Below are positions 13,084 through 34,391 of a DNA stretch of 34,391 nucleotides, in pieces. The DNA comes from a virus (Duplodnaviria > Heunggongvirae > Uroviricota > Caudoviricetes). The position numbers were made by a program, and so were the translations under genes. The notes beneath the pieces are model-generated. The model saw only the letters and a program-made list of their open reading frames with translations, did not search any database and was not told the origin of the DNA. The stretch spans positions 1 to 34,391 of the IMG/VR virus record IMGVR_UViG_2645727673_000011; one strand, written 5' to 3'. Position 1 is the first letter of the stretch. Every line of letters starts with the position of its first letter.

Positions 13084-13100
13084 AAAATGATTAGAGCAAT
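13084..13100 (-). promoter_or_regulatory. Candidate P1 C1 repressor operator upstream of ssb, in the ssb/lyz divergent intergenic region
   Basis: Minus-strand sequence ATTGCTCTAATCATTTT matches the 17-bp C1 operator consensus ATTGCTCTAATAAATTT (recalled from memory) at 15 of 17 positions. Confidence 0.4.
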
Positions 13101-16879: not shown

Positions 16880-19800
16880 ATGAACAAGCTATATATGCGG
16901 GTGTTTCGCTGTTCAAGTGTCAGCGAAATATTGAAATACATTAGGGCAATAACATCTCACCGAGCGCCGATTAAATACGGCGTGGAAAAGGTGGAAGGCA
17001 AAAGCTATGACCGACTGCGCCGGGAGGCGAATCAGAAGGCGATAGATTTGCTTAATTCGCTGGTGGACGGCGCGACACTGACAGATGAACAGCGCCAGAT
17101 CCTGGCTGGGTACACCGGTGAAGGCGGCATTGGCGGGTCCGTCTCCGAATATTACACACCAAAGCCGATCGCTGAAGGTGTCTGGGAGATCATGAAGCTC
17201 TACGGCGCGGACGTAGGTAACACTCTGGAACCATCGGCGGGAACCGGCGTTTTTAATGAGACAAAACCGGTTGGTACGGTGATGACCGCGACTGAGATCA
17301 GCAGTGTTTCCGGTCGTATAAACCAGTTGTTACACCCGGAAGACAGCGTACAGATTTCCCCGTTCGAACAGCTGGCTATAAGCACGCCTAACGATTCATT
17401 CGACCATGTTGTGGGTAACGTTCCGTTCGGCGGTCGTGATAACACACGCAACATCGATAAGCCTTACGCAGAAGAAACGGACATGGGTTCTTACTTCATG
17501 CTCCGCATGCTGGACAAGATAAAGCCAGGCGGATTCATGTGCGTGATTGTGCCGCCGTCCATTGTTTCAGGTTCAAACATGAAGCGGTTACGCCTGCGCT
17601 TATCCCGTAAAGCTGAATTTCTTGGCGCTCACCGCTTGCCTACCGGTACTTTTGACGCAAACGGGACCAGTACAGTCGTTGATGTGGTGCTGATGCGCAA
17701 ACATCCGGCGGAGATGGCTGAGAAAATCCCCCTGGTGGATGAAGGTACTCTTGAATCGGCAAATGTGCTTTGGCCAACGTTTATTTCTGGCAAGTGGTTT
17801 GAAAAGGACGGCCGCCGGTTTGTTCATGGCACTCAGGAGAAGGGATTCCAGGGGCGTATTGAGGTTCGTGCCGACGGGCAGATTGATAACCAGGCTCTTA
17901 AAGCGAAGCTGATTCATCGTTTCGAAAGTCGTATCGACTGGTCTTTGCTCGATATGGCTGAACCGTCACCGACCGCAGATGTTGTTGATGAAGGGGAAAT
18001 GCGCCTGATTAATGGCGTATGGCAAAAATATGCTGGTGGTCGCTGGATTGAAGCTGATGCCGGGAAGGAGCTGAAGATTGATGTTGCCAGTTATGGCGCG
18101 GATAGCTGGGAGGCTCTTCAGCGTAACCTGACTACCACAGAAGGTCGTCTCGGCATGACATTTACCCAGATGGCAAATGTCCGCGATAAGTACACCACAT
18201 CAATCAGCGACGATATGGTGCAGTTGGTGGACTGGATTAACAGCCAACCTGAAAAATACCGTGAACGCTTGTATCGCGGAGCGATGATTGGCCGGATGTT
18301 AATTGAATATCAGGACATGAAGGCCGCCGGGCATAGTGCTGAACAAATCGAACAGCAGCGCCTTTCTCTGGTATCCCGTTTGCAGGCAGAGATTGACCGT
18401 TTTGGTAACCCCGGTCGCGGTCCGATAGCGAAATTATCGGGGAGCGGTGCGCGCGCCTGGTTTGCTTTCCGTGGTGCAATTAAGCTGGATGGCACTATTT
18501 CTGACGAGCTGACAGGAAAGCTGGTTACGCATGATTCCAGCGCCAGTTATGACTCCACCAGCTATCAGGACACCCTGCGTTATCTCTATAGCGATCTTAC
18601 CCGCGATCCAATCCAGCTCGATGATTTCCGCCTTGCGTTTACCGGCGAACTGCCAGCCAGTGATGAAGAGTTGCTTAATTTATTGGCCAGCACCCCTGGT
18701 ATTGCGGTTTCACCGTATGGCGGGATTGTTCCGTTCGCCCGCGCCACCAGCGGCGACATTAACGAGATAGTGGCTCCAAAACAGGAATTCCTTGCCACAC
18801 TCCCCGACGGTCCAGTAAAAAACAACGTCCTTAATCAGCTGGCAGCGATCGAAGAGAAGCGCATCAAGACGCCAGCAGAGAATATCCGCTTTAAGCTCAA
18901 TAGCCGTTGGTTCGACCGCTCCGTCATTCTGGAGTTTTTGCAGGAAAACGGCTATCCGGATCTGCGCTATGTGCAGTCAGTGCAGCTGGAAGGCGACGAA
19001 ATGGTTTCTGACACCTATCACGGTGGTGATGGTCTGTTCGTCGGGCACCGATACGGTGTCGTCCAGCGCAAGGATAAAGAAACAGGCGAGATCCGCTACG
19101 AGTGGGACCGTAAATCAGGTGAAAACGCGACCGGGTTCCCGGCACAGCTGGAAAAGTATCTCAATGGTGCGCGTATCGGTGGCAAAGATAGCGCGACGGC
19201 GAACGGCTACCGCGAGCAGATGGCACTGCTTGAGGACCAGTTCAATAAGTGGATCAAGACGCACGATCGCTACGATGAGCTGGTTGCCAAATACAACGAT
19301 GTGTTCAATAGCAATATCCCGTATGAACACTCTGGCGATCCGCTTGGGTTGAAGGGATTAAGCGGTAAGCGCCAGCCATTTGATTACCAGAATAGCGAGG
19401 TGCGCCGACTGTCCGAAGATGGGCGCGGCATCCTGGGCTTTGGCACCGGGCTGGGTAAAACCACGACCGCGCTGGCGCTTGAGGCGTTCAACTATGAGAA
19501 CGGTCGCTCTACCCGTACTGCGTATGTAGTGCCTAAATCAGTGCTGGAAAATTGGTATTACGAAACAAAAGAATTCCTGAGTGAAGAGGCATTCAGTAAC
19601 TACCTGTTCGTCGGTCTTGATGTGCTGATGGATGGCGATCAGATTCGCCAGGTGCCGGTGCTCGATGAGAACGGTAAACCTGTTCTTGGTACTGATGGCA
19701 CTCCAGTTATGCGCGATGCTCTTAAGCTGGCAGATGAAGCCACTATCACGGCGCGGATGAACGCGATCCCGCACTCAAATTACCGTGCAGTCGTGTTTAC

Positions 19801-24366: not shown

Positions 24367-24525
24367 ACTTCCCCAAATAATGGCTGTTTGCTCGCCGAGC
24401 ATCGCTCAAAGAAACACGATTATTCAAACATATAGATAGTGATAGTGCCCTCGTATAAGTGTGACAACTTCTGGCTCTAGTGGGCTGGGGAGGCGGCGCT
24501 TTGTTGCTAAATGATCTGGTTTAAA

Positions 24526-26466
24526 ATGGATATGAAAAAAGAAACGATTTTTTCCGAAGTAGAAACGGCTAACAGCAAGCAACTGGCTGTGTTGAAAGCT
24601 AATTTCCCTCAGTGTTTTGATAAAAACGGAGCCTTCATTCAAGAAAAATTGCTTGAGATTATTAGGGCATCGGAAGTTGAACTCTCTAAAGAATCATACA
24701 GCTTGAACTGGCTGGGTAAATCTTATGCCCGTTTGTTGGCCAATCTACCACCGAAAACGTTGTTGGCAGAAGATAAAACTCATAACCAACAAGAAGAGAA
24801 CAAGAACAGTCAACACCTGTTAATCAAAGGGGATAATCTCGAAGTATTGAAGCATATGGTTAATGCTTACGCTGAAAAGGTGAAGATGATTTACATTGAC
24901 CCACCATACAATACAGGTAAGGATGGGTTCGTTTATAATGATGATCGCAAATTTACACCTGAGCAGCTTTCTGAACTAGCAGGCATCGACCTCGATGAGG
25001 CTAAACGCATATTAGAATTTACCACCAAGGGGTCAAGCAGTCATAGTGCATGGCTGACATTCATTTACCCACGCCTTTATATTGCTCGTGAATTAATGAG
25101 AGAAGACGGGACTATTTTTATTTCTATTGACCATAATGAGTTCAGTCAATTAAAACTAGTTTGCGACGAGATCTTTGGTGAGCAAAACCATGTTGGGGAT
25201 CTAGTATGGAAAAATGCAACTGATAACAACCCTTCAAATATCGCTGTAGAGCATGAATATATTATTGTTTACACAAAAAACAAAGAGCAGCTTATAAGTG
25301 AGTGGAAATCTAATATCTCCGATGTAAAAAACTTACTTGTCAACATAGGTGAAGAATTTGCATCAAAATACACTGGCAATGAACTTCAGGAAAAATATAC
25401 CCAGTGGTTTCGTGAACACAGATCTGAATTATGGCCTCTTGACCGATACAAATATATAGACAAAGACGGCATCTATACTGGTAGTCAGAGCGTCCACAAC
25501 CCCGGAAAAGAGGGTTACAGATATGATATTATACATCCAAAAACTAAGAAGCCATGCAAACAACCTCTTATGGGATATCGTTTTCCATTAGATACAATGG
25601 ATAGGCTTCTGTCTGAAGAAAAGATCATCTTCGGTGATGATGAAAACAAAATTATAGAACTAAAAGTTTATGCTAAGGATTACAAACAGAAATTAAGCTC
25701 CGTTATCCATCTTGATGGGCGTGTTGCAACGAACGAACTTAAAGAGCTGTTCCCAGAAATGACTCAACCATTCACAAATGCTAAAACTATAAAATTAGTA
25801 GAAGATTTAATATCTTTTGCATGTGATGGAGAGGGTATTGTTTTGGATTTTTTTGCTGGGTCAGGAACTACAGCGCATACAGTTTTTAATTTGAATAACA
25901 AAAATAAAACGTCGTATCAGTTTATTACAGTTCAACTAGATGAACCTACAAAAGATAAATCTGATGCCATGAAGCATGGCTATAATACAATATTTGACTT
26001 AACAAAGGAGCGTTTAATTAGGGCGTCTAAAAAAAATAGGGATCAGGGGTTTAAGGTATATCAACTAATGCCAGATTTTCGCGCTAAAGACGAATCAGAA
26101 CTTACACTGTCTAATCATACATTCTTTGATGATGTTGTCTTGACGCCTGAACAATATGACACTCTATTAACTACATGGTGCCTGTATGATGGCAGTTTGC
26201 TAACAACACCTATTGAAGATGTTGATCTTGGTGGCTACAAAGCACATTTGTGCGATGGTCGTCTGTATTTGATTGCACCTAATTTTACTAGCGAAGCATT
26301 GAAAGCGTTACTTCAAAAGGTGGATTCAGACAAAGACTTTGCTCCAAACAAAGTCGTGTTTTATGGCAGCAATTTTGAAAGCGCAAAGCAAATGGAACTC
26401 AATGAAGCACTAAAAAGTTATGCTAATAAAAAATCTATTGAGTTAGATTTGGTGGTGAGGAACTAA
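24526..26466 (+). CDS. mod: Type III restriction-modification methyltransferase (Mod), EcoP1I-like
   Basis: N6-adenine methyltransferase motifs DPPYNTG and FFAGSGTTAH. In-frame ATGs at 24511, 24526 and 24532; I chose 24526 because it gives 646 aa, the length I recall for P1 Mod. Confidence 0.85.
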   Translation: MDMKKETIFSEVETANSKQLAVLKANFPQCFDKNGAFIQEKLLEIIRASEVELSKESYSLNWLGKSYARLLANLPPKTLLAEDKTHNQQEENKNSQHLLIKGDNLEVLKHMVNAYAEKVKMIYIDPPYNTGKDGFVYNDDRKFTPEQLSELAGIDLDEAKRILEFTTKGSSSHSAWLTFIYPRLYIARELMREDGTIFISIDHNEFSQLKLVCDEIFGEQNHVGDLVWKNATDNNPSNIAVEHEYIIVYTKNKEQLISEWKSNISDVKNLLVNIGEEFASKYTGNELQEKYTQWFREHRSELWPLDRYKYIDKDGIYTGSQSVHNPGKEGYRYDIIHPKTKKPCKQPLMGYRFPLDTMDRLLSEEKIIFGDDENKIIELKVYAKDYKQKLSSVIHLDGRVATNELKELFPEMTQPFTNAKTIKLVEDLISFACDGEGIVLDFFAGSGTTAHTVFNLNNKNKTSYQFITVQLDEPTKDKSDAMKHGYNTIFDLTKERLIRASKKNRDQGFKVYQLMPDFRAKDESELTLSNHTFFDDVVLTPEQYDTLLTTWCLYDGSLLTTPIEDVDLGGYKAHLCDGRLYLIAPNFTSEALKALLQKVDSDKDFAPNKVVFYGSNFESAKQMELNEALKSYANKKSIELDLVVRN

Positions 26467-26468
26467 TC

Positions 26469-29381
26469 ATGTCAAAAGGGTTCACTCTCGAAAAGAACTT
26501 GCCGCATCAGAAAGCAGGAGTCGATGCGGTGATGAATGTTTTTGTTTCCGCAACACCTCACCTGACGGATAATGTTGCTGTTCGCCTTTTAGCTAATCCT
26601 GAACTGAAGCTGTCTGAACAACAATACTACAACAATATAAAAAATGTTCAGGCGTTCAATGGTATTGCGCACTCAAAAGATAATCACAATGCTAAAAGCA
26701 ACATCATTGATGTTTCTATGGAGACAGGTACAGGCAAGACGTACACCTATATCAAAACTATTTTTGACCTGAATAAATCATTTGGTATTAACAAGTTTAT
26801 CATCATTGTTCCGACTCTATCTATCAAGGCCGGAACCGTTAACTTTTTAAAAAGTGATGCTTTAAAAGAACACTTCCGGGATGATTACAAGCGTGAGCTG
26901 AGAACTTACGTTGTTGAAAGTCAGAAAAACGCTGGCAAAAATACAAAATCGTATATGCCTCAGGCTATACATGATTTTGTTGAAGCAAGTAACTTCAATA
27001 AAAAATATATACACGTTCTTGTTATTAACTCAGGAATGATCAACTCTAAGTCTTTAACGGATACTTACGATACTGGCTTGCTTGATAATCAGTTTAATAC
27101 TCCAGTTGACGCGCTCAGAGCTGTAAAACCATTTATCATCATTGACGAACCACATAGATTTCCTACTGGTAAAAAAACATGGGAAAACATAGAGAAATTT
27201 AACGCACAATATATTATCCGCTATGGCGCAACCTTTAGCGAAGGCTATAAGAACCTGGTTTATCGTCTTACAGCCGTGGACGCATTTAACGATGATCTCG
27301 TTAAAGGTATTGATGCATATATTGAGGATATAGTCGGCGATGGTAACGCAAACCTCAAATTCGTCAAATCTGACGGAAAGGAAGCTACATTTGAACTGAA
27401 TGAAAACAACAACAAAAAATCGTTTAAGTTAGCTAAAGGTGAATCACTGTCTAAGACGCATAGTGCGATCCATGATTTAACTCTTGATGCTTTAAACAAG
27501 AGCACAGCAGTGTTGAGTAATGGTATTGAGTTGAAGATTGGTAGCTCAATAAATCCCTATTCTTACGATCAGACACTCGCTGATAACATGATGCGTAAGG
27601 CTGTCAAAGAACACTTTAAGTTAGAAAAAGAACTTCTGACACAAAGGCCACGCATAAAGCCTCTTACTCTTTTCTTTATTGACGATATTGAAGGCTATCG
27701 TGACGGTAATGATATTTCCGGAAGCCTGAAGACCAAATTCGAAGAATACGTTCTGGCAGAAGCTAATGAACTGTTAAAAACAGAGCAAGATGCGTTTTAT
27801 AAAAACTATCTTGAAAAAACAGTCACAAATATATCTTCCGTTCATGGTGGTTATTTCTCAAAAGATAACAGTGATAAGGATGATAAAATCGAGCAGGAAA
27901 TCAACGAAATCCTTCATGACAAAGAGCTTTTGCTGTCTTTAGATAATCCCCGTCGGTTTATTTTCTCAAAATGGACGTTGCGTGAGGGGTGGGATAATCC
28001 TAATGTTTTTCAGATCTGTAAGCTCCGTTCGAGCGGTAGTACCACATCTAAGCTTCAAGAGGTAGGGCGCGGTTTGCGTCTTCCTGTGAATGAATACATG
28101 TGTCGAGTGAAAGACCGCAATTTTACCCTTAAATATTATGTTGATTTTACAGAAAAGGATTTTGTTGACTCACTTGTTAAAGAGGTCAACGAGAGTTCTT
28201 TCAAAGAAAGAGTTCCAAGTAAGTTTACTCAAGAGCTTAAGGAACAAATCATGGCTCAGTATCCTGAGCTTTCATCCAGAGCACTAATGAATGAACTTTT
28301 CAATGATGAAATCATTGATGACAATGATAATTTCAAAGATTCAGATGCCTATAGCCGCTTAAAATCCAAATATCCAGCAGCATTCCCTATAGGAGTGAAA
28401 CCTGGTAAAATCAAAAAAGCTACTGATGGAAAAAGACGCACTAAAATGCGTGTTGGTAAGTTCAGTGAGCTGAAAGAACTATGGGATTTGATCAATCAAA
28501 AAGCGGTGATTGAGTACAAAATAAACAGTGAAAGTGAATTTTTATCCATTTTCAAGTCATTCATGCTCGAAGAAACAGAACGATTTACCAAATCAGGCGT
28601 TCATACTCGCATTGATAAAATTTACATCCACAATGATATGGCAATGTCGAAAAGCATTGTCAGTGATGACGATGACTTTGCTAAGCTGAACACAATGAGC
28701 TATCGAGAGTTTCTCGATAACTTATCACAGACTATTTTTGTTAAACACGGTACTTTACATAAAGTTTTTTGTGATATAAAAGACACTATTAATATCACTG
28801 AATACCTTAATATTCAAACAATCAGAAAAATTAAATCTGGTTTTAGTAAGTATTTGTTGAACAATTCGTTTAATAAATTCAGCCTCGGATATAATTTGAT
28901 TTCGGGTTCAATTCATCCTACAAAGTTCACAAATGCTGATGGTAATCCTCTAGGCGAGGTATTATCAAGTGATCTTGGTGTATTGCAGGATAATGCAAAA
29001 GCACCATTAGATACTTATCTTTTTGAAGAAGTTTTTTATGATTCAGAGCTTGAAAGGCGTAATATAACAGATAGAGAGATCCAGTCTGTTGTTGTTTTTT
29101 CAAAGATACCGAAGAATTCTATTAAGATCCCGGTAGCTGGTGGATACACTTACTCACCCGATTTTGCTTATGTTGTAAAAACAGCGGAAGGTGATTATCT
29201 TAATTTTATCATTGAAACAAAAAACGTAGATAGTAAGGATAGTTTACGGCTTGAAGAAAAACGGAAAATTGAACATGCCCAAGCGCTTTTCAATCAAATA
29301 AGTCAGTCTGTTAAAGTTGAATTCAGAACGCAGTTTGCTAATGATGATATTTATCAGTTAATCAAGAGCGCATTACCATAA
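26469..29381 (+). CDS. res: Type III restriction endonuclease subunit (Res), EcoP1I-like
   Basis: 970 aa, ATG 2 nt after the mod stop with GAGGAA upstream. Helicase Walker A METGTGKTYTY and motif II IIIDEPH; C-terminal PD-(D/E)xK-like nuclease motif (SPDFAYVVK ... IIETKN). Confidence 0.9.
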   Translation: MSKGFTLEKNLPHQKAGVDAVMNVFVSATPHLTDNVAVRLLANPELKLSEQQYYNNIKNVQAFNGIAHSKDNHNAKSNIIDVSMETGTGKTYTYIKTIFDLNKSFGINKFIIIVPTLSIKAGTVNFLKSDALKEHFRDDYKRELRTYVVESQKNAGKNTKSYMPQAIHDFVEASNFNKKYIHVLVINSGMINSKSLTDTYDTGLLDNQFNTPVDALRAVKPFIIIDEPHRFPTGKKTWENIEKFNAQYIIRYGATFSEGYKNLVYRLTAVDAFNDDLVKGIDAYIEDIVGDGNANLKFVKSDGKEATFELNENNNKKSFKLAKGESLSKTHSAIHDLTLDALNKSTAVLSNGIELKIGSSINPYSYDQTLADNMMRKAVKEHFKLEKELLTQRPRIKPLTLFFIDDIEGYRDGNDISGSLKTKFEEYVLAEANELLKTEQDAFYKNYLEKTVTNISSVHGGYFSKDNSDKDDKIEQEINEILHDKELLLSLDNPRRFIFSKWTLREGWDNPNVFQICKLRSSGSTTSKLQEVGRGLRLPVNEYMCRVKDRNFTLKYYVDFTEKDFVDSLVKEVNESSFKERVPSKFTQELKEQIMAQYPELSSRALMNELFNDEIIDDNDNFKDSDAYSRLKSKYPAAFPIGVKPGKIKKATDGKRRTKMRVGKFSELKELWDLINQKAVIEYKINSESEFLSIFKSFMLEETERFTKSGVHTRIDKIYIHNDMAMSKSIVSDDDDFAKLNTMSYREFLDNLSQTIFVKHGTLHKVFCDIKDTINITEYLNIQTIRKIKSGFSKYLLNNSFNKFSLGYNLISGSIHPTKFTNADGNPLGEVLSSDLGVLQDNAKAPLDTYLFEEVFYDSELERRNITDREIQSVVVFSKIPKNSIKIPVAGGYTYSPDFAYVVKTAEGDYLNFIIETKNVDSKDSLRLEEKRKIEHAQALFNQISQSVKVEFRTQFANDDIYQLIKSALP

Positions 29382-29391
29382 TTCTAGTTTA

Positions 29392-29416
29392 AAAGGAGGT
29401 GAAAACCTCCTTTTTT
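29392..29416. terminator. Bidirectional intrinsic terminator between convergent res (+) and mat (-)
   Basis: aaaggaggt-gaaa-acctccttt followed by TTTTTT on the plus strand; the complement also carries a short U tract. Confidence 0.65.
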
Positions 29417-29455
29417 GACATCCTACACGACCTGAAAGAAGTGGCGTTTAGGCCG

Positions 29456-30097
29456 TTAAAAATAGTTCCCCTCTCCAGTTAAGATTCCATGAGGAACTCT
29501 TTTTTCTGCAAGTCTCTGTGTGCCCCGAATTATGTTAATGAGAGGGTTTAGTAACGATGGTTCCTGGTGTGCCTCAACTTCTCCAGCCATTGCCCTGATG
29601 TAGTCGTCGCTGGCAACGTTGTTGTATTCCGTCGCAAAGCAACATAGTAACGTCAGAACATGCTCTGTCGTTATTTCGCTCCAGTTGATGTTGAAAAATT
29701 CATCGCCTTTTTTGTCATGTTCGGAATCGAAGATGCTTTGGTGGAGGATGTATTTGCCGGATTCCTTGCGCGGTAACTTGATCGCTTTCTGGCGTTCCAA
29801 TTCCTTGTAAATCTGCATTGCTTCAATCAGTACCGGTCTGCCGTTCATGAAGGGATCACGCAACCTTACACGCTGGCCAACTCGACCGGTAATAAAGCTG
29901 TTTTCCTCTTCCACCAGCACGATAAAACCCTTTTCCTCTTTTTCTCGCAATTCGCGCAGCAGTTGGAGTTCCATATCGCGGCGGCGTTCAGGGTAGCTGG
30001 TCCGCTCAGCCATTATCAGCTCATTGTTGATCCATGCGGCAGTCATTGACGCCGGTTTGCCGACGCTCATCGAAACAACGCATATTTTCTTATCCAT
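29456..30097 (-). CDS. mat: Mat-like protein (P1 maturation control); function uncertain
   Basis: 213 aa from the ATG at 30097 (MDKKICVVSM...) with AAGGGG upstream. The longer track ORF runs through an upstream terminator hairpin. Named by position between res and ref. Confidence 0.5.
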   Translation of the reverse strand: MDKKICVVSMSVGKPASMTAAWINNELIMAERTSYPERRRDMELQLLRELREKEEKGFIVLVEEENSFITGRVGQRVRLRDPFMNGRPVLIEAMQIYKELERQKAIKLPRKESGKYILHQSIFDSEHDKKGDEFFNINWSEITTEHVLTLLCCFATEYNNVASDDYIRAMAGEVEAHQEPSLLNPLINIIRGTQRLAEKRVPHGILTGEGNYF

Positions 30098-30105
30098 AGC
30101 GCCCC

Positions 30106-30136
30106 TTATAAAAAAGAAAAGCCACCAGCGGCGGCT
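30106..30136 (-). terminator. Minus-strand terminator-like hairpin downstream of ref and just upstream of the mat start
   Basis: Minus-strand RNA agccgcc-gcu-gguggcu (7-bp stem with one G-U pair) followed by uuuucuuuuuu. Confidence 0.45.
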
Positions 30137-30286
30137 TAGCAATACAACTGAAGGTAGCGCCCGGTACTCAGACTGTGCCGTCCATGGAATATTTGAAAAG
30201 GGATCCATCCGTACCGGGCATGTGATGATTCTGACTGAAGTCACTTGTCAGTTGTCAATTATTTCAGATTAAAAATAATATATTTA

Positions 30287-30847
30287 TTAGTGCATGATGT
30301 TTGCCATCTCATAGGCGTCAGCCAGCAACTCCATCTCTGACTTGTTCAGCAAGGTGAATTCTTTCTTGCCTCCAACCACACCATCGGCATGAACAGGGAC
30401 CAGCCAGGGGTATTTTTCTCTTACTTCAGCCGGTGCTGCATGCTGGTGGTGCCATCTACAAAGTGGCAATTGCTTTTTGTGACAACCAGGCGCGGTACGA
30501 CCGGAGATATGGTGCAGAGACACCTCTTCAGATATTACTCCATGCATATAGCAGGCAATGCAGGGGAGAGCGCCAAGAGCATTGGCTATGCGCCGCTCCT
30601 CCGCCGTCGGTGTTCGTCCCTTCAAGCCACGAGATTTTATTTTTACCGCGCTTTTCCGCGTTTTGCTGGCTGGTGGGCGCTCTTTCTGTTTAGCGATACG
30701 GCGGTCGATAGTATTCCGCATTTTCTGATATTGAGATTCTCGCCAGGCCGGATCAGCCAACTTCTCCCGTTGCCGAGCGATCGCTCGTTCTCTGGCTGCC
30801 TTCTGCCACTTACGGTGCTGTTCAATTTTTTGTTCGATTGTTTTCAT
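30287..30847 (-). CDS. ref: Ref recombination enhancement function (HNH-type endonuclease)
   Basis: 186 aa from the ATG at 30847 (MKTIEQKIEQHRKWQKAARERA ... EMANIMH), which I recognise as P1 Ref. Cys/His-rich HNH region CIACYMHG ... CRWHHQH. Confidence 0.85.
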   Translation of the reverse strand: MKTIEQKIEQHRKWQKAARERAIARQREKLADPAWRESQYQKMRNTIDRRIAKQKERPPASKTRKSAVKIKSRGLKGRTPTAEERRIANALGALPCIACYMHGVISEEVSLHHISGRTAPGCHKKQLPLCRWHHQHAAPAEVREKYPWLVPVHADGVVGGKKEFTLLNKSEMELLADAYEMANIMH

Positions 30848-30955
30848 ATGGCAAAAAAAAGGCGGCCTGATGGCCGCCAATGATGTCAAGGAGTTAAGTA
30901 ATGGCAACGTCTTCGTAGTTGACAAAAACTGCGGCTCAATTATAGCAACCAATTA

Positions 30956-30993
30956 GGGGTCGTCTCAGAAAACGGAAAATAAAGCACGCTAAG
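30956..30993. repeat. 38-bp terminal inverted repeat of a Tn21-subgroup Tn3-family transposon (tnpA-proximal end)
   Basis: GGGGTCGTCTCAGAAAACGGAAAATAAAGCACGCTAAG; the tnpA stop codon lies inside it, as is usual for Tn3-family elements. Confidence 0.8.
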
Positions 30994-33955
30994 CCGGTTG
31001 CAGAGGCCGTAGCGGCCTGAACTTCCCCGCGCCGATCTTGGCGCTGCTGCGCCATAGGTAATCACCGGTCAGGTTGATGTGCTCCCAGCCGAGTGGCGAC
31101 AGGTACTGCAATAGCGAGTCATCGACGGCATGACCATTGCCGCGCAACGCATGCGCCGCACGCTCCAGGTAGACCGTGTTCCACAGCACGATGGCCGCCG
31201 TCACCAGGTTGAGGCCGCTGGCCCGGTAGCGCTGCTGCTCGAAACTGCGGTCACGGATTTCACCAAGGCGGTTGAAGAACACGGCACGGGCCAGCGCATT
31301 GCGCGCCTCGCCCTTGTTCAGCCCGGCATGCACGCGGCGGCGTAGCTCGACGCTTTGCAGCCAGTCGAGGATGAACAGCGTGCGCTCGATGCGGCCCAAC
31401 TCGCGCAGCGCGACGGCCAAGCCGTTCTGGCGCGGGTAGCTGCCGAGTTTCCTGAGCATCAGCGAGGCCGTCACCGTGCCCTGCTTGATCGAGGTGGCCA
31501 GCCGCAGGATTTCGTCCCAATGGGCGCGGACGTGCTTGATGTTGAGCGTGCCGCCGATCATCGGCTTGAGCGCGTCATAGGCGGCATCGCCCTTCGGGAT
31601 GTAGAGCTTGGTGTCGCCCAGGTCGCGGATGCGCGGCGCGAAGCGGAAGCCCAAGAGGTGCATCAGGGCGAAGACGTGATCGGTGAAGCCCGCCGTGTCG
31701 GTGTAGTGCTCCTCGATCCGCAGGTCGGATTCGTGGTACAGCAGGCCGTCGAGCACGTAGGTTGAGTCGCGCAGGCCGACATTGACCACCTTGGTGTGGA
31801 ATGGCGCGTATTGGTCGGAGATGTGGGTGTAGAAAGTCCGTCCTGGGCTGCTGCCATATTTTGGGTTGATGTGCCCCGTGCTCTTTGCCTTGCTAGCGGT
31901 TCGGAAATTCTGTCCGTCCGATGATGATGTGGTGCCATCGCCCCAGTGCCCGGCAAAGGGATGCCGAAACTGAGCGTTGACCAGTTCAGCCAACGCTGTC
32001 GAGTACGTTTCGTCGCGGGTATGCCAGGCTTGCAGCCAAGCGAGCTTCGCGTAGGTCGTGCCGGGGCAGGACTCGGCCATCTTGGTCAGGCCCAGGTTGA
32101 TCGCGTCGGCCAGGATCGTGGTCAACAACAGGTTCTTGTCCTTGGCCAGATCGCCCGATTTCAAGTGCGTGAAGTGCCGGGTGAAGCCCGTCCACTCATC
32201 GACTTCGAGCAGCAGTTCGGTGATCTTGACGTGCGGCAGGACCATGGCTGTCTGGTCTATCAGCGCCTGCGCGGTGTCGGGCACCGCCGCATCCAGCGGC
32301 GTGATCTTCAAGCCCGACTCGGTGATGATGGCATCCGGCAGGTCGTTGGCTGCCGCCATGCGGTTGACGGTGGCAAGTTGTGCTTCCAGCAGCGTCAGCC
32401 GCTCATGCAGATATTGTTCGCAGTCGGTGGCCACGGCCAGCGGCAATTCGCTGGACTGCTTGAGGCTGGTGAACTTCTCGGGCGGTACCAGGTAGTCCTC
32501 GAAGTCCTTGAACTGGCGTGAACCCTGCACCCAGATGTCGCCCGAGCGCAGGGAGTTCTTCAACTCGGACAGCGCGCACAGTTCGTAGTAGCGCCGGTCG
32601 ATGCCGGCGTCGGTCATCACCAGTTTCTGCCAGCGCGGCTTGATGAAGCCGGTCGGTGCATCGGCTGGCAGCTTGCGGGCGTTGTCGGTGTTCATGCCGC
32701 GCAGCACCTCAATGGCATCAAGCACGTTTTTGGCGGCGGGCGCGGCCCGCAGCTTGAGCACGGCAAGGAATTCCGGTGCATAGCGGCGCAGGGTGGCGTA
32801 GCTCTCGCCGATGCGATGCAGGAAATCGAAGTCATCGGGTTGCGCGAGCTTCTGCGCCTCGGTGACGCTCTCGGCAAAGGAATCCCAGGACATGACGGCC
32901 TCGATGGCGGCAAACGCATCGCGGCCTGATTGCTTGGCGTCGATCAGCGCCTGACCGATGCGCCCGTACAGACGTACCTTGGCGTTGATGGCCTTGCCTG
33001 ACGCCTGGAACTGCTGCTGATGCTTATTCTTGGCAGCGTTAAACAGCTTACCCAGGATGCGGTCGTGCAGGTCGATGATTTCGTCGGTGACGGTGGCCAT
33101 GCCCTCGGTGGCCAGCGCCACGAGAGTGGCGTAGCGCCGTTGCGGCTCGAATTTGGCCAGGTCGGCGGGTGTCATCTGGCCGCCCTCGCGGGCAATCTTG
33201 AGCAGGCGGTTCTGGTGAACCAGCCGCTCGATGCCGGTAGGCAGATCGAGTGCCTGCCATGCCTTGAGGCGTTCGATGTGTTCCAGCATATGCCGCGAAT
33301 TTGGCTTGGCCGGAGACTGGCGCAACCAAGCCAACCAGGTCGTCTTGCCGTTGTCCCGGCGCTTGAGCAGATCGTCGAGGCGGCGGCGATGCGCGTCCGC
33401 CAGTGGTTCGGCCAAGGCGTCGTAGATGCGCCGGTTAGCACGGGTGATCGCCTCGGCACTCGCCCGCTCGACGGCGTTGAGGGCGGGCAGAATGACCGAC
33501 TGCCGCCGCAGGTGCCCGATCAAGGCGCTGGCCAGCACGATGCCTTTGTCGGTTTGCATCGCCAGCTCGGTCAGCATCTGGACGGCCTGCCGGTAATGGC
33601 TCATGGTGAAGGGCCGGAAACCGAACACGGTTTGCAGCTCGCTCAGGTGCTCGCGCCGGGTCTGCTCCCGCTGGCCGTACTCGTTCCAGCTTTCGACGCC
33701 GACCTTGAGCTGGTCGGCGACCAGCTTCAACAAGGGCGGGAACGGTAGTTCATCGACGCCCAGGATGACGCCGGGAAAGCGCAGGTAACAGAGCTGCACC
33801 GCGAAGCCCAGCCGATTGGCTGGCCCGCGCCGCTGTCGGATGATCGAGAGGTCGGTATCGTTGAATGTGTAATGTCGGATCAGGTCGTCCTTGGAGTCCG
33901 GCAACGCCAGCAGGCTTTCCCGCTCGGCGGCGGACAGGATGGAACGACGTGGCAT
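30989..33955 (-). CDS. tnpA: Tn3-family transposase TnpA
   Basis: 988-aa ORF ([31 protein letters not shown]...), typical of Tn21/Tn1721-type transposases. Coordinates taken from the ORF track. Confidence 0.9.
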
Positions 33956-33957
33956 AT

Positions 33958-34391
33958 TTACTGATCCGTTCTCAAGTATTGATACAGGGTTTCGCGACTG
34001 ATTCCGAATTCACGAGCAAGCTTGGTCTTTTGCTCGCCAGCCTCGACACGTTGGCGCAGTTCGGCAATACGCTCAGACGACAGGGATTTCTTCCTGCCAC
34101 GGTAAGCCCCGCGTTGCTTGGCGAGCGCAATACCCTCGCGCTGACGCTCGCGGATCAGGGCGCGCTCGAACTCGGCGAACGCGCCCATCACCGAGAGCAT
34201 CAGGTTCGCCATCGGAGAGTCTTCGCCAGTAAAACTGAGGTGTTCCTTGACGAATTCGATATGCACGCCGCGTTGTGTCAGCGTTTGCACGATCCGGCGC
34301 AAATCATCGAGATTGCGCGCCAGGCGATCCATGCTATGCACCACCACGGTGTCGCCGGTGCGGGCGAAGCTTATCAGCGCTTCCAGTGGCA
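33958..34391 (-). CDS. tnpR: Serine recombinase/resolvase TnpR, 3' part; N-terminus lies beyond the window end
   Basis: C-terminal resolvase sequence with a helix-turn-helix ([38 protein letters not shown]). The reading frame stays open to the last base of the window. Confidence 0.85.

What the first reader, a model, noticed from the sequence alone, without database searches (positions are those of the whole stretch)
30848..30993. Tn21-type transposon inserted 108 bp upstream of ref, abutting its likely promoter
The 38-bp inverted repeat begins at 30956. Eleven bp to the left, the minus strand shows a TATAAT hexamer (30944-30939), and the position where a -35 or operator would lie is now transposon DNA. 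In P1, cra, cre and loxP lie beyond ref, so the insertion separates ref from that region and may change ref regulation. AATTA (30951-30955) is a candidate 5-bp target-site duplication. The GC jump marks foreign cargo, plausibly resistance genes, beyond the window.
Basis: partly seen in the sequence, partly recalled or inferred. Interest (0 to 1): 0.55.

Follow-up and report, generated by a model that had tools for sequence, protein, structure and literature searches.

The report
Tn21 splits the ref repressor operator
A copy of the classic resistance transposon Tn21 sits in a P1-like phage-plasmid of E. coli, inserted inside the repressor-binding site and promoter of the phage nuclease gene ref; this is an ordinary, already-sequenced kind of event whose one interesting consequence (loss of repressor control over a toxic gene) is predicted here but not measured.

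Summary
A 38-bp Tn21 inverted repeat (IRtnp) lies at 30956-30993, 108 bp upstream of the ref start codon (30847, minus strand). tnpA and a tnpR cut by IS26 at the window's end follow. This segment is 99.97% identical to Tn21 of plasmid R100.

The window is 99.996% identical to E. coli plasmid pDETEC1. There the other Tn21 end (IRmer) lies next to c8, and the predicted 5-bp duplication (AATTA, or TAATT in P1 orientation) is present. Both junctions occur in the same three complete plasmids, and the ref-side junction also in one viral contig. That indicates a single ancestral event.

Against the annotated P1 genome, the insertion is inside the 17-bp C1 operator Oref. The ref side keeps operator bases 8-17 and the perfect P2ref -10. 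It loses the native -35, operator bases 1-7 and the published H-NS site. The second predicted promoter, the leader terminator hairpin and the ref coding sequence are intact.

I infer that ref is uncoupled from C1 repression. This was not tested, and silencing of P2ref remains a rival. The c8-ref interval is a recurrent landing site for Tn3-family transposons. Novelty and interest are low to moderate.

The parts
30287..30847 (-). ref, encoding the RecA-dependent HNH nuclease (186 aa), intact
   Evidence: It is 97% identical to P1 Ref with no gaps, and H134 and H153 are present. It matches Pfam RecA_dep_nuc at 1e-50. Relatives annotate it as a Ref family protein, WP_023155281.1.
30853..30878 (-). 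Leader terminator-like hairpin (GGCGGCC-AUCA-GGCCGCC, 30878-30861) followed by a U8 run (30860-30853), 5 nt before the ref ATG; untouched by the insertion
   Evidence: The terminator scan finds it. The RNA fold of the leader gives the hairpin in the minimum-energy structure, z = -2.75. It is conserved in P1. It probably corresponds to the attenuator named in the title of Windle, Laufer and Hays 1988, which is cited in PMC4713147; I could not read that paper.
30880..30907 (-). Predicted promoter P1ref (TTGCCA-16-CATCAT), intact
   Evidence: It maps to the P1 annotation at nt 2017-2044. The promoter scan scores it 9/12.
30939..30944 (-). P2ref -10 hexamer TATAAT with TG at -15/-14 (extended -10), retained
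   Evidence: It maps to the P1 annotation at nt 1980-1985, supported by the alignments. The scan reports the preceding TG.
30946..30955 (-). Remnant of the C1 operator Oref: operator nt 8-17 only (TAATTGGTTG); nt 1-7 are now beyond the transposon
   Evidence: P1 Oref is nt 1962-1978, ATTGCTCTAATTGATTG. The empty-site relative has the whole operator. No operator match with 3 or fewer mismatches remains at this position.
30951..30955 (.). One copy of the 5-bp target-site duplication (AATTA on +, TAATT in P1 orientation)
   Evidence: The same pentamer precedes IRmer at the c8 side in pDETEC1. The c8-side junction is identical in all three complete plasmids.
30956..30993 (+). 38-bp terminal inverted repeat IRtnp of Tn21
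   Evidence: It is unique in the window with 0 expected. It is identical to IRtnp of Tn21 in R100.
30963..30968 (-). -35-like hexamer CTGAGA inside the IR, 18 bp upstream of the P2ref -10 (candidate hybrid promoter; prediction only)
   Evidence: The promoter scan scores the pair 10/12 with a TG-extended -10.
30989..33955 (-). tnpA of Tn21 (988 aa), co-directional with ref; its stop codon lies inside the IR
   Evidence: ORF list. Pfam DDE_Tnp_Tn3 at 1e-158 plus DUF4158. The protein accession, WP_001138064.1, is the same in pDETEC1 and R100.
33958..34387 (-). tnpR (serine resolvase) lacking its 5' end, truncated by IS26
   Evidence: Pfam Resolvase matches profile positions 68-144 only, plus HTH_7. 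The relative annotates it as 'missing N-terminus'. The IS26 boundary is read.
34388..34391 (+). First 4 nt (GGCA) of the IS26 terminal repeat; the window ends here
   Evidence: pDETEC1 continues GGCACTGTTGCAAATAG... into IS26.

Best explanation
The feature is the tnpA-proximal end (IRtnp) of Tn21. One replicative transposition event placed it in a P1-like (IncY) phage-plasmid of E. coli, at P1 nt 1969-1973. That site is inside the 17-bp C1-repressor operator Oref, which overlaps the P2ref promoter of ref. The event duplicated TAATT. IS26 later truncated tnpR and rebuilt the interior into a multiresistance region of about 27 kb.

**Shown.** ref keeps its ORF, its leader terminator hairpin, the predicted promoter P1ref, the perfect extended -10 of P2ref and operator nt 8-17. 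It has lost operator nt 1-7, the native -35 and the upstream H-NS site CGATAAA. Those now lie next to c8, on the far side of the transposon.

**Inferred, not measured.** C1 can no longer occlude P2ref. The extended -10, aided by a -35-like CTGAGA in the IR at 18 bp and by read-through from the co-directional tnpA, probably still fires. ref would then be transcribed at a low level independently of the repressor, limited by the leader terminator. I put about 0.5 on this regulatory step. The structural part is near certain.
For: **Identity**
- The IR is unique in the window.
- Window 30956-34390 is 99.97% identical to R100 Tn21, and the IRs are identical.
- The TnpA accession is the same as in R100.
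- The Pfam domains fit.

**A single transposition event**
- pDETEC1 is 99.996% identical to the window.
- It carries ...ATTGCTCTAATT|IRmer at the c8 side and IRtnp|TAATTGGTTGCTATAAT at the ref side.
- Its mer end is 100% identical to R100 over 6024 bp.
- Both junctions occur in the same three complete plasmids out of 5,426 E. coli genomes, plus one IMG/VR contig.
- An empty-site relative with the same Ref, C8 and Cre protein accessions has the intact operator.

**Regulatory anatomy**
- The P1 annotation gives P2ref, Oref, P1ref and ref.
- My count from the sequences is that the operator's match to the consensus ATTGCTCTAATAAATTT falls from 14/17 to 8/17. Consistently, no site with 3 or fewer mismatches remains there.
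- The hybrid promoter scores 10/12 with a TG-extended -10.
- The only terminator-like site between tnpA and ref is the leader hairpin.

**Literature (PMC4713147)**
- ref is C1-repressed and is induced 73-fold in lytic growth.
- A C1 site occludes one of the ref promoters.
- H-NS binds the 5' region that contains CGATAAA.
Against: - No expression data exist for this allele.
- Ref expression is reported to be toxic and to lower lysogenisation 40-fold (PMC4713147). Yet this allele persists with an intact ref in isolates from China and the USA. That fits weak or no derepression at least as well as derepression.
- The IR-borne -35 is only 4/6 at a non-optimal 18-bp spacing.
- Losing the AT-rich upstream DNA could weaken P2ref.
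- Other independent insertions in this interval have different effects on P2ref: one destroys the -10, others lie upstream of it or separate it from ref. This argues against any one regulatory outcome being selected.
- The target duplication and the cargo are seen only in relatives, not in the window itself.
Confidence: 0.85

Rival explanations
1. The structure is the same but the outcome is opposite or neutral. Removing the native -35 and the upstream AT-rich DNA silences P2ref. ref is left on the weak predicted P1ref behind its leader terminator, so Ref is no higher, or is lower, than in a normal lysogen. The site is simply a permissive intergenic gap.
For: - The lineage is stable in three unrelated isolates with an intact ref and an intact c1, although Ref is toxic when expressed.
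- The c8-ref interval carries at least six other independent junctions with varied effects on the promoter.
- Pfeifer et al. 2022 report that resistance genes in P1-like elements sit at a few loci, and their Fig. 2 legend lists a Ref family gene among the labelled genes around resistance-gene insertions.
Against: P2ref has a perfect TATAAT with a TG extension. From general knowledge of sigma-70 promoters, this class works without a good -35. The scan rates the new hybrid at 10/12. The native -35, CTATCA, is itself poor at 3/6.
Confidence: 0.4
2. The insertion was positively selected because it rewires ref. Constitutive Ref would raise RecA-dependent recombination and SOS, for example boosting integron and IS activity. 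Alternatively, selection favoured removing lytic-cycle control.
For: Seven distinct junctions cluster within about 320 bp. Ref expression enhances SOS (PMC4713147).
Against: - The junctions do not share a regulatory outcome or an orientation. pBL12EC-2 is inverted.
- Only 3 of 698 E. coli genomes that hold this region carry this allele.
- Tn3-family elements prefer AT-rich targets, which would explain clustering in this AT-rich gap. This rests on general knowledge.
Confidence: 0.08
3. The junction is not a transposition product. It would be an assembly chimera or an IS26- or homologous-recombination joint.
For: The window ends at an IS26 boundary. The Tn21 interior is heavily rearranged by IS26.
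Against: The junction falls at the exact outer base of an intact 38-bp IR. The partner IR carries a matching 5-bp direct repeat, and the two flanks rejoin into the uninterrupted P1 sequence. The identical junction is found in three independently sequenced complete plasmids and one metagenomic viral contig.
Confidence: 0.02

Closest known systems
Tn21 of plasmid R100/NR1 (Tn3 family, Tn21 subgroup)
   Same: The 38-bp IRtnp and IRmer are identical. The tnpA/tnpR segment is 99.97% identical. In pDETEC1 the mer end is 100% identical over 6024 bp. It makes a 5-bp AT-rich target duplication, and TnpA, MerR/T/P/A/D/E and IntI1 have the same protein accessions.
   Different: tnpR is truncated by IS26. 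The integron cassette is dfrA14 rather than aadA1. IS26 and IS6100 have added mph(A), blaTEM-1, sul2-strAB and an IncQ repC fragment. The target is a phage operator rather than the R100 site, whose duplication is TATTA.
Promoter-operator region of ref in bacteriophage P1 (P2ref/Oref, P1ref, leader terminator)
   Same: The -10 of P2ref, P1ref, the hairpin plus U-run and the ref ORF are all conserved.
   Different: Oref is split and only nt 8-17 remain. The -35 of P2ref and the H-NS site CGATAAA are displaced to the other side of the roughly 27-kb insert.
Other resistance-bearing P1-like phage-plasmids with Tn3-family insertions between c8 and ref (pZ1323CEC0001-2 and SLK172, pTK3888_2, HCP17S3_I4, MH445380, pBL12EC-2)
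   Same: The backbone interval is the same and the transposons are of the Tn21/Tn1721 type. Most have the tnpA end facing ref.
   Different: The insertion points differ: within c8, at P1 ~1916, inside the -10, and at P1 ~2009. Only the window's allele cuts through the operator between its conserved left part and the -10.
Gene activation by transposon ends: hybrid promoters, and read-through from Tn3-family tnpA (a Tn3 entry for aacC2, and Tn5393; review PMC9330008)
   Same: An element end places a -35-like hexamer at promoter spacing from a resident -10, and tnpA is co-directional with the downstream gene.
   Different: Here it is only a sequence prediction. The resident promoter was already active, so the expected change is loss of repression rather than activation of a silent gene.

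Membership tests
Tn21 (Tn3 family, Tn21 subgroup) | 38-bp terminal inverted repeats of the Tn21 sequence | tested here: met
   IRtnp in the window is identical to R100 IRtnp. IRmer is present in pDETEC1. The window holds only one IR.
Tn21 (Tn3 family, Tn21 subgroup) | Tn3-type DDE transposase of about 988 aa ending inside the IR | tested here: met
   The ORF is 30989-33955. Pfam gives DDE_Tnp_Tn3 at 1e-158 plus DUF4158. The segment has 1 nt difference from R100 in 3435 nt.
Tn21 (Tn3 family, Tn21 subgroup) | Intact serine resolvase gene tnpR with its res site upstream of tnpA | tested here: not met
   tnpR lacks its 5' end; the Resolvase profile is matched from position 68 only. It is cut by IS26 at 34388. 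No res site follows in the window. The element is therefore a Tn21 derivative, not a complete Tn21.
Tn21 (Tn3 family, Tn21 subgroup) | 5-bp direct duplication of the target | tested here: met
   TAATT flanks both IRs in pDETEC1. The same c8-side junction is present in all three complete plasmids. This cannot be tested in the window alone.
Tn21 (Tn3 family, Tn21 subgroup) | mer operon at one end and a class 1 integron inside | tested here: met
   In the relative pDETEC1, merRTPCADE-urf2 is 100% identical to R100 and intI1-dfrA14 is present. These lie outside the window.
C1-controlled promoter-operator of P1 ref | Complete 17-bp C1 operator overlapping the promoter | tested here: not met
   Only nt 8-17 remain. 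By my count the match to consensus is 8/17, against 14/17 for native Oref, and the site is not recovered at 3 or fewer mismatches.
C1-controlled promoter-operator of P1 ref | P2ref -10, P1ref, leader terminator hairpin and ref ORF | tested here: met
P1-like (IncY) phage-plasmid | Synteny and high identity with the P1 backbone (mat, ref, res/mod and neighbours) | tested here: met
   The backbone is 96.6% identical to P1 over 2233 nt, as far as the P1 stretch fetched. There are 25 phage records with matches. pDETEC1 is typed IncY and carries c1, cre, terminase and phd/doc.

The most novel reading that the evidence does not exclude
Splitting Oref makes ref a constitutively expressed gene that no longer responds to C1 or H-NS. 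It sits on a multiresistance phage-plasmid circulating in clinical E. coli, including ST361. Carriers would then show raised SOS and RecA-dependent recombination and heightened killing by quinolones. The c8-ref hot spot would be a place where resistance acquisition repeatedly rewires a phage lytic nuclease.
Probability: 0.15. Interest if true: 0.55.

Novelty: new member of a known kind. Interest (0 to 1): 0.3.

Why it matters
Mostly it does not matter much. This is a well-understood transposon in a well-known phage-plasmid, already present in annotated RefSeq plasmids. The region around ref also appears in published maps of where resistance genes sit in P1-like elements (PMC9600943).

The one point worth a bench test concerns ref. 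The insertion removes the repressor operator and the H-NS site of a gene whose product is toxic, enhances SOS and increases ciprofloxacin lethality (PMC4713147). If ref is derepressed on these multiresistance plasmids, carriage could change recombination rates and quinolone response in clinical strains.

The allele is also a clean natural operator-deletion mutant, with an isogenic empty-site relative available for comparison.

Tried and rejected
1. **Compensatory mutation.** The single A-to-G difference next to the duplication (TAATTGGTTG against TAATTGATTG in the closest empty-site plasmid) looked like a possible post-insertion change. I rejected this. Ten uninterrupted plasmids matched through a seed that must contain the G, so it is a pre-existing polymorphism.
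2. **Universal orientation bias.** The first five junctions all had IRtnp facing ref. pBL12EC-2 has the opposite orientation, so there is no universal bias.
3. **pTetA_020022 as another transposition.** Its junction has no IR. It is a deletion or recombination joint, not a clean insertion.
4. **Wider occurrence of the junction.** The ref-side junction was not found in metagenome contigs or in species-representative genomes. There was one hit in IMG/VR.
5. **Rfam.** The scan of the whole window found nothing at gathering scores.
6. **Windle, Laufer and Hays 1988.** This paper on the ref attenuator is not held in the library. Equating the hairpin with their attenuator rests only on the paper's title and on position.
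7. **Literature on these plasmids.** Searches found only a passing mention of 'a phage-plasmid' in the DETEC study. I found no description of the operator disruption.

Full report
**1. The observation**

Reading the window confirms each coordinate.
- ref is a 186-aa ORF on the minus strand, 30287-30847. It is 97% identical to P1 Ref with no gaps and keeps the catalytic histidines H134 and H153. It matches Pfam RecA_dep_nuc.
- The 38-bp repeat GGGGTCGTCTCAGAAAACGGAAAATAAAGCACGCTAAG lies at 30956-30993. It is the only match in the window, with none expected by chance. The IR therefore begins 108 bp upstream of the ATG.
- TATAAT lies on the minus strand at 30944-30939, 11 bp from the IR. AATTA is at 30951-30955.
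- GC jumps from about 0.50 to 0.61-0.66 at about 31000.
- Beyond the IR lie tnpA (30989-33955, 988 aa; DDE_Tnp_Tn3 plus DUF4158) and a tnpR that lacks its 5' end.
- The last four bases of the window (GGCA) are the start of an IS26.

**2. What it is**

*Identity.* The transposon segment, 30956-34390, differs by one base in 3435 from Tn21 in plasmid R100 (NC_002134.1). The R100 IRs are identical to those seen here. The element is therefore Tn21 itself, not just a 'Tn21-type' element.

*Host replicon.* The window as a whole is a P1-like phage-plasmid. Window 28725-30956 is 96.6% identical to P1. Window 10600-34391 matches E. coli plasmid pDETEC1 (NZ_CP116167.1; IncY; ICU rectal swab, Guangzhou) with one mismatch in 23,792 bases.

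*Other end and cargo.* In pDETEC1 the order is cra-cre-c8, then IRmer-merRTPCADE-urf2. An IS26-rich resistance region of about 27 kb follows, carrying strAB, mph(A), IS6100, dfrA14-intI1, blaTEM-1 and IncQ repC-sul2. Then come the truncated tnpR, tnpA, IRtnp and ref. The mer end is 100% identical to R100 Tn21 over 6024 bp.

*Target duplication.* The c8-side junction reads ...ACCATTGCTCTAATT|GGGGGCACCTCAG.... The ref-side junction, in P1 orientation, reads ...GAGACGACCCC|TAATTGGTTGCTATAAT....

*Empty site.* The two flanks rejoin into the uninterrupted sequence of an empty-site relative, NZ_CP023896.1. That plasmid has the same Ref, C8 and Cre protein accessions.

*Distribution.* The ref-side junction and the c8-side junction occur in the same three complete plasmids among 5,426 E. 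coli genomes. These are pDETEC1 (China), pMRSN914033_p2 (San Antonio) and pMB3362_2 (ST361, blood, Houston). The ref-side junction is also in one IMG/VR contig. It was not found in metagenome contigs or in species-representative genomes. One ancestral transposition event has spread modestly.

*Later changes.* IS26 rearranged the interior differently in each plasmid. In pMB3362_2 an IS4321 sits inside IRtnp after nt 22.

**3. What was hit**

The annotated P1 genome, read with its sequence, maps onto the window as follows.

| Feature | P1 coordinates | Window coordinates | State in the window |
|---|---|---|---|
| P2ref -35 (CTATCA) | 1957-1962 | displaced | lost to the c8 side |
| C1 operator Oref (ATTGCTCTAATTGATTG) | 1962-1978 | 30946-30955 (nt 8-17 only) | split |
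| P2ref -10 (TATAAT) | 1980-1985 | 30944-30939 | intact |
| Predicted P1ref | 2017-2044 | 30907-30880 | intact |
| ref start | 2077 | 30847 | intact |

The duplicated pentamer is P1 1969-1973, so the transposon lies inside the operator. The ref side keeps operator nt 8-17. Nt 1-12, the native -35 and everything upstream now lie next to c8.

That displaced DNA includes CGATAAA (P1 1942-1948). Ronayne et al. identify this as the H-NS site in a region bound by H-NS in vitro and in lysogens (PMC4713147).

By my count from the sequences, identity to the operator consensus ATTGCTCTAATAAATTT falls from 14/17 to 8/17. A search allowing three mismatches no longer finds a site there.

Three elements between the insertion and the ref ATG are untouched. 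They are P1ref, a 7-bp GC hairpin followed by U8 that ends 5 nt before the ATG, and the ref ORF.

**4. How it most likely works**

*Established.* ref is a C1-repressed lytic-cycle gene, induced 73-fold in lytic growth. A C1 site occludes one of its promoters. Ref expression induces SOS, causes filamentation and is toxic (PMC4713147).

*Shown here.* The operator, the -35 and the H-NS site are physically separated from ref.

*Inferred.* P2ref has a perfect -10 preceded by TG. From general knowledge, such extended -10 promoters tolerate poor -35 elements, and the native -35 is itself only 3/6. The IR supplies CTGAGA at an 18-bp spacing. The scan rates this hybrid 10/12, the best promoter-like site in the region. 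In addition, tnpA is co-directional with ref, and the only terminator-like site between them is the leader hairpin.

I therefore favour C1-independent, probably low-level, ref transcription limited by the leader terminator. I put about 0.5 on this.

*Main rival (about 0.4).* P2ref is crippled, and the site is merely permissive.

*How the evidence bears on the choice.* The lineage persists with intact ref and c1 in three unrelated isolates. That means any derepression must be tolerable. It does not decide between the two models.

**5. Context: a hot region**

Of 702 E. coli records that hold the c8-ref interval, 556 have it uninterrupted. Besides the window's allele I read six other junctions within about 320 bp.

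| Plasmid or record | Element | Position (P1 coordinates) |
|---|---|---|
| SLK172 and three Korean chicken plasmids | Tn21 | inside c8 |
| Two Spanish infant-gut P1 isolates | Tn1721-type | 3' end of c8 |
| pTK3888_2 | another Tn3-family element | ~1916 |
| UK pig plasmid (HCP17S3_I4) | Tn21 | inside the P2ref -10; duplication AATTA |
| pBL12EC-2 | Tn1721 | ~2009, opposite orientation |
| pTetA_020022 and relatives | no IR at the joint | ~2026 |

The outcomes for the promoter differ, and the orientation is not uniform. That fits a permissive AT-rich gap better than selection for one regulatory result.

Pfeifer et al. 2022 report that resistance genes in P1-like phage-plasmids sit at a few loci. 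Their Fig. 2 legend lists a Ref family gene among the labelled genes around those insertions.

**6. Comparison and novelty**

The element meets the Tn21 criteria I could test: IRs, TnpA, the target duplication, and the mer operon and integron in relatives. It fails one, because tnpR and res are not intact. It is therefore a Tn21 derivative.

The ref control region fails the 'complete C1 operator' criterion.

Nothing here is a new kind of system. It is a specific, previously undescribed allele of a known transposon in a known hot spot, and it is present in annotated public records. Literature searches found no description of the operator disruption.

Interest is low to moderate. The one testable consequence is possible derepression of a toxic nuclease that enhances SOS and quinolone killing, on clinical multiresistance plasmids.

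Noticed in passing
L007 3384-3440; L008 4170-4230; L009 4100-4140; L002 ~7155-7350; L011 6355-6392; L010 ~6363: The roughly 320-bp c8-ref interval of P1-like plasmids carries at least six further independent junctions, in addition to the window's Tn21. Tn21 lies inside c8 in four plasmids. A Tn1721-type element lies at the c8 3' end in two. Another Tn3-family element lies at P1 ~1916. A second Tn21 lies inside the P2ref -10 with duplication AATTA. Tn1721 lies at P1 ~2009 in the opposite orientation. One joint at P1 ~2026 has no IR.
   Followed up: partly
L012 5143 onward (pMB3362_2, NZ_CP103706.1): In the ST361 blood isolate the same Tn21 insertion has an IS4321 (IS110 family) inside IRtnp, after nt 22 of the repeat. 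From general knowledge, IS4321 is known to target Tn21-family IRs. The insertion should immobilise that end of the transposon.
   Followed up: partly
window 34388-34391: The window ends exactly 4 nt into an IS26 that truncates tnpR. This looks like a contig break at a repeat, so the window is probably the end of a short-read contig. In pMRSN914033_p2 the missing 5' part of tnpR lies elsewhere, next to another IS26 (L006 31374-31511), which suggests an IS26-mediated inversion.
   Followed up: partly
window 30848-30952 (minus strand): ref has no recognisable Shine-Dalgarno sequence. The U8 tail of the leader hairpin ends 5 nt before the ATG. The ref reading frame stays open for 35 codons upstream, to a TTG at 30952 inside the promoter; this is the 221-aa ORF. 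How ref is translated, and whether read-through transcripts from tnpA could be translated in this frame, is unexplained.
   Followed up: no
window 24511-29381: A low-GC block (0.33-0.39) encodes a type III restriction-modification pair, Mod (651 aa) and Res (970 aa). It is absent or replaced in the P1 isolate MH445380, whose alignment skips 24367-29584. PMC9603915 lists res-mod as a variable low-GC region of P1-like plasmids.
   Followed up: no
window 13084-13100 and 16934-16950 (minus strand): Two C1-operator-like sites lie elsewhere in the window, with 2 and 3 mismatches to ATTGCTCTAATAAATTT. One is near the ssb-like gene and one is upstream of the 2255-aa methylase gene. The operators at these other sites are therefore still present, which singles out the loss at ref.
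   Followed up: no
L004 1962-1978 (pDETEC1, c8 side of the transposon): The c8-side copy keeps operator nt 1-12 (ATTGCTCTAATT) fused to GGGGG of IRmer. It retains the conserved left part of the C1 site and the H-NS site. C1 may still bind there, beside the 3' end of merR. Any effect is unknown.
   Followed up: no
whole plasmids NZ_CP116167.1 (119,948 bp), NZ_CP158355.1 (124,304 bp), NZ_CP103706.1 (109,870 bp): The resistance region raises the plasmid size well above P1's 94.8 kb. From general knowledge of P1 headful packaging with about 10-15% terminal redundancy, these genomes may no longer fit in one head with redundant ends. The lineage may now be confined to plasmid life. This was not tested.
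   Followed up: no
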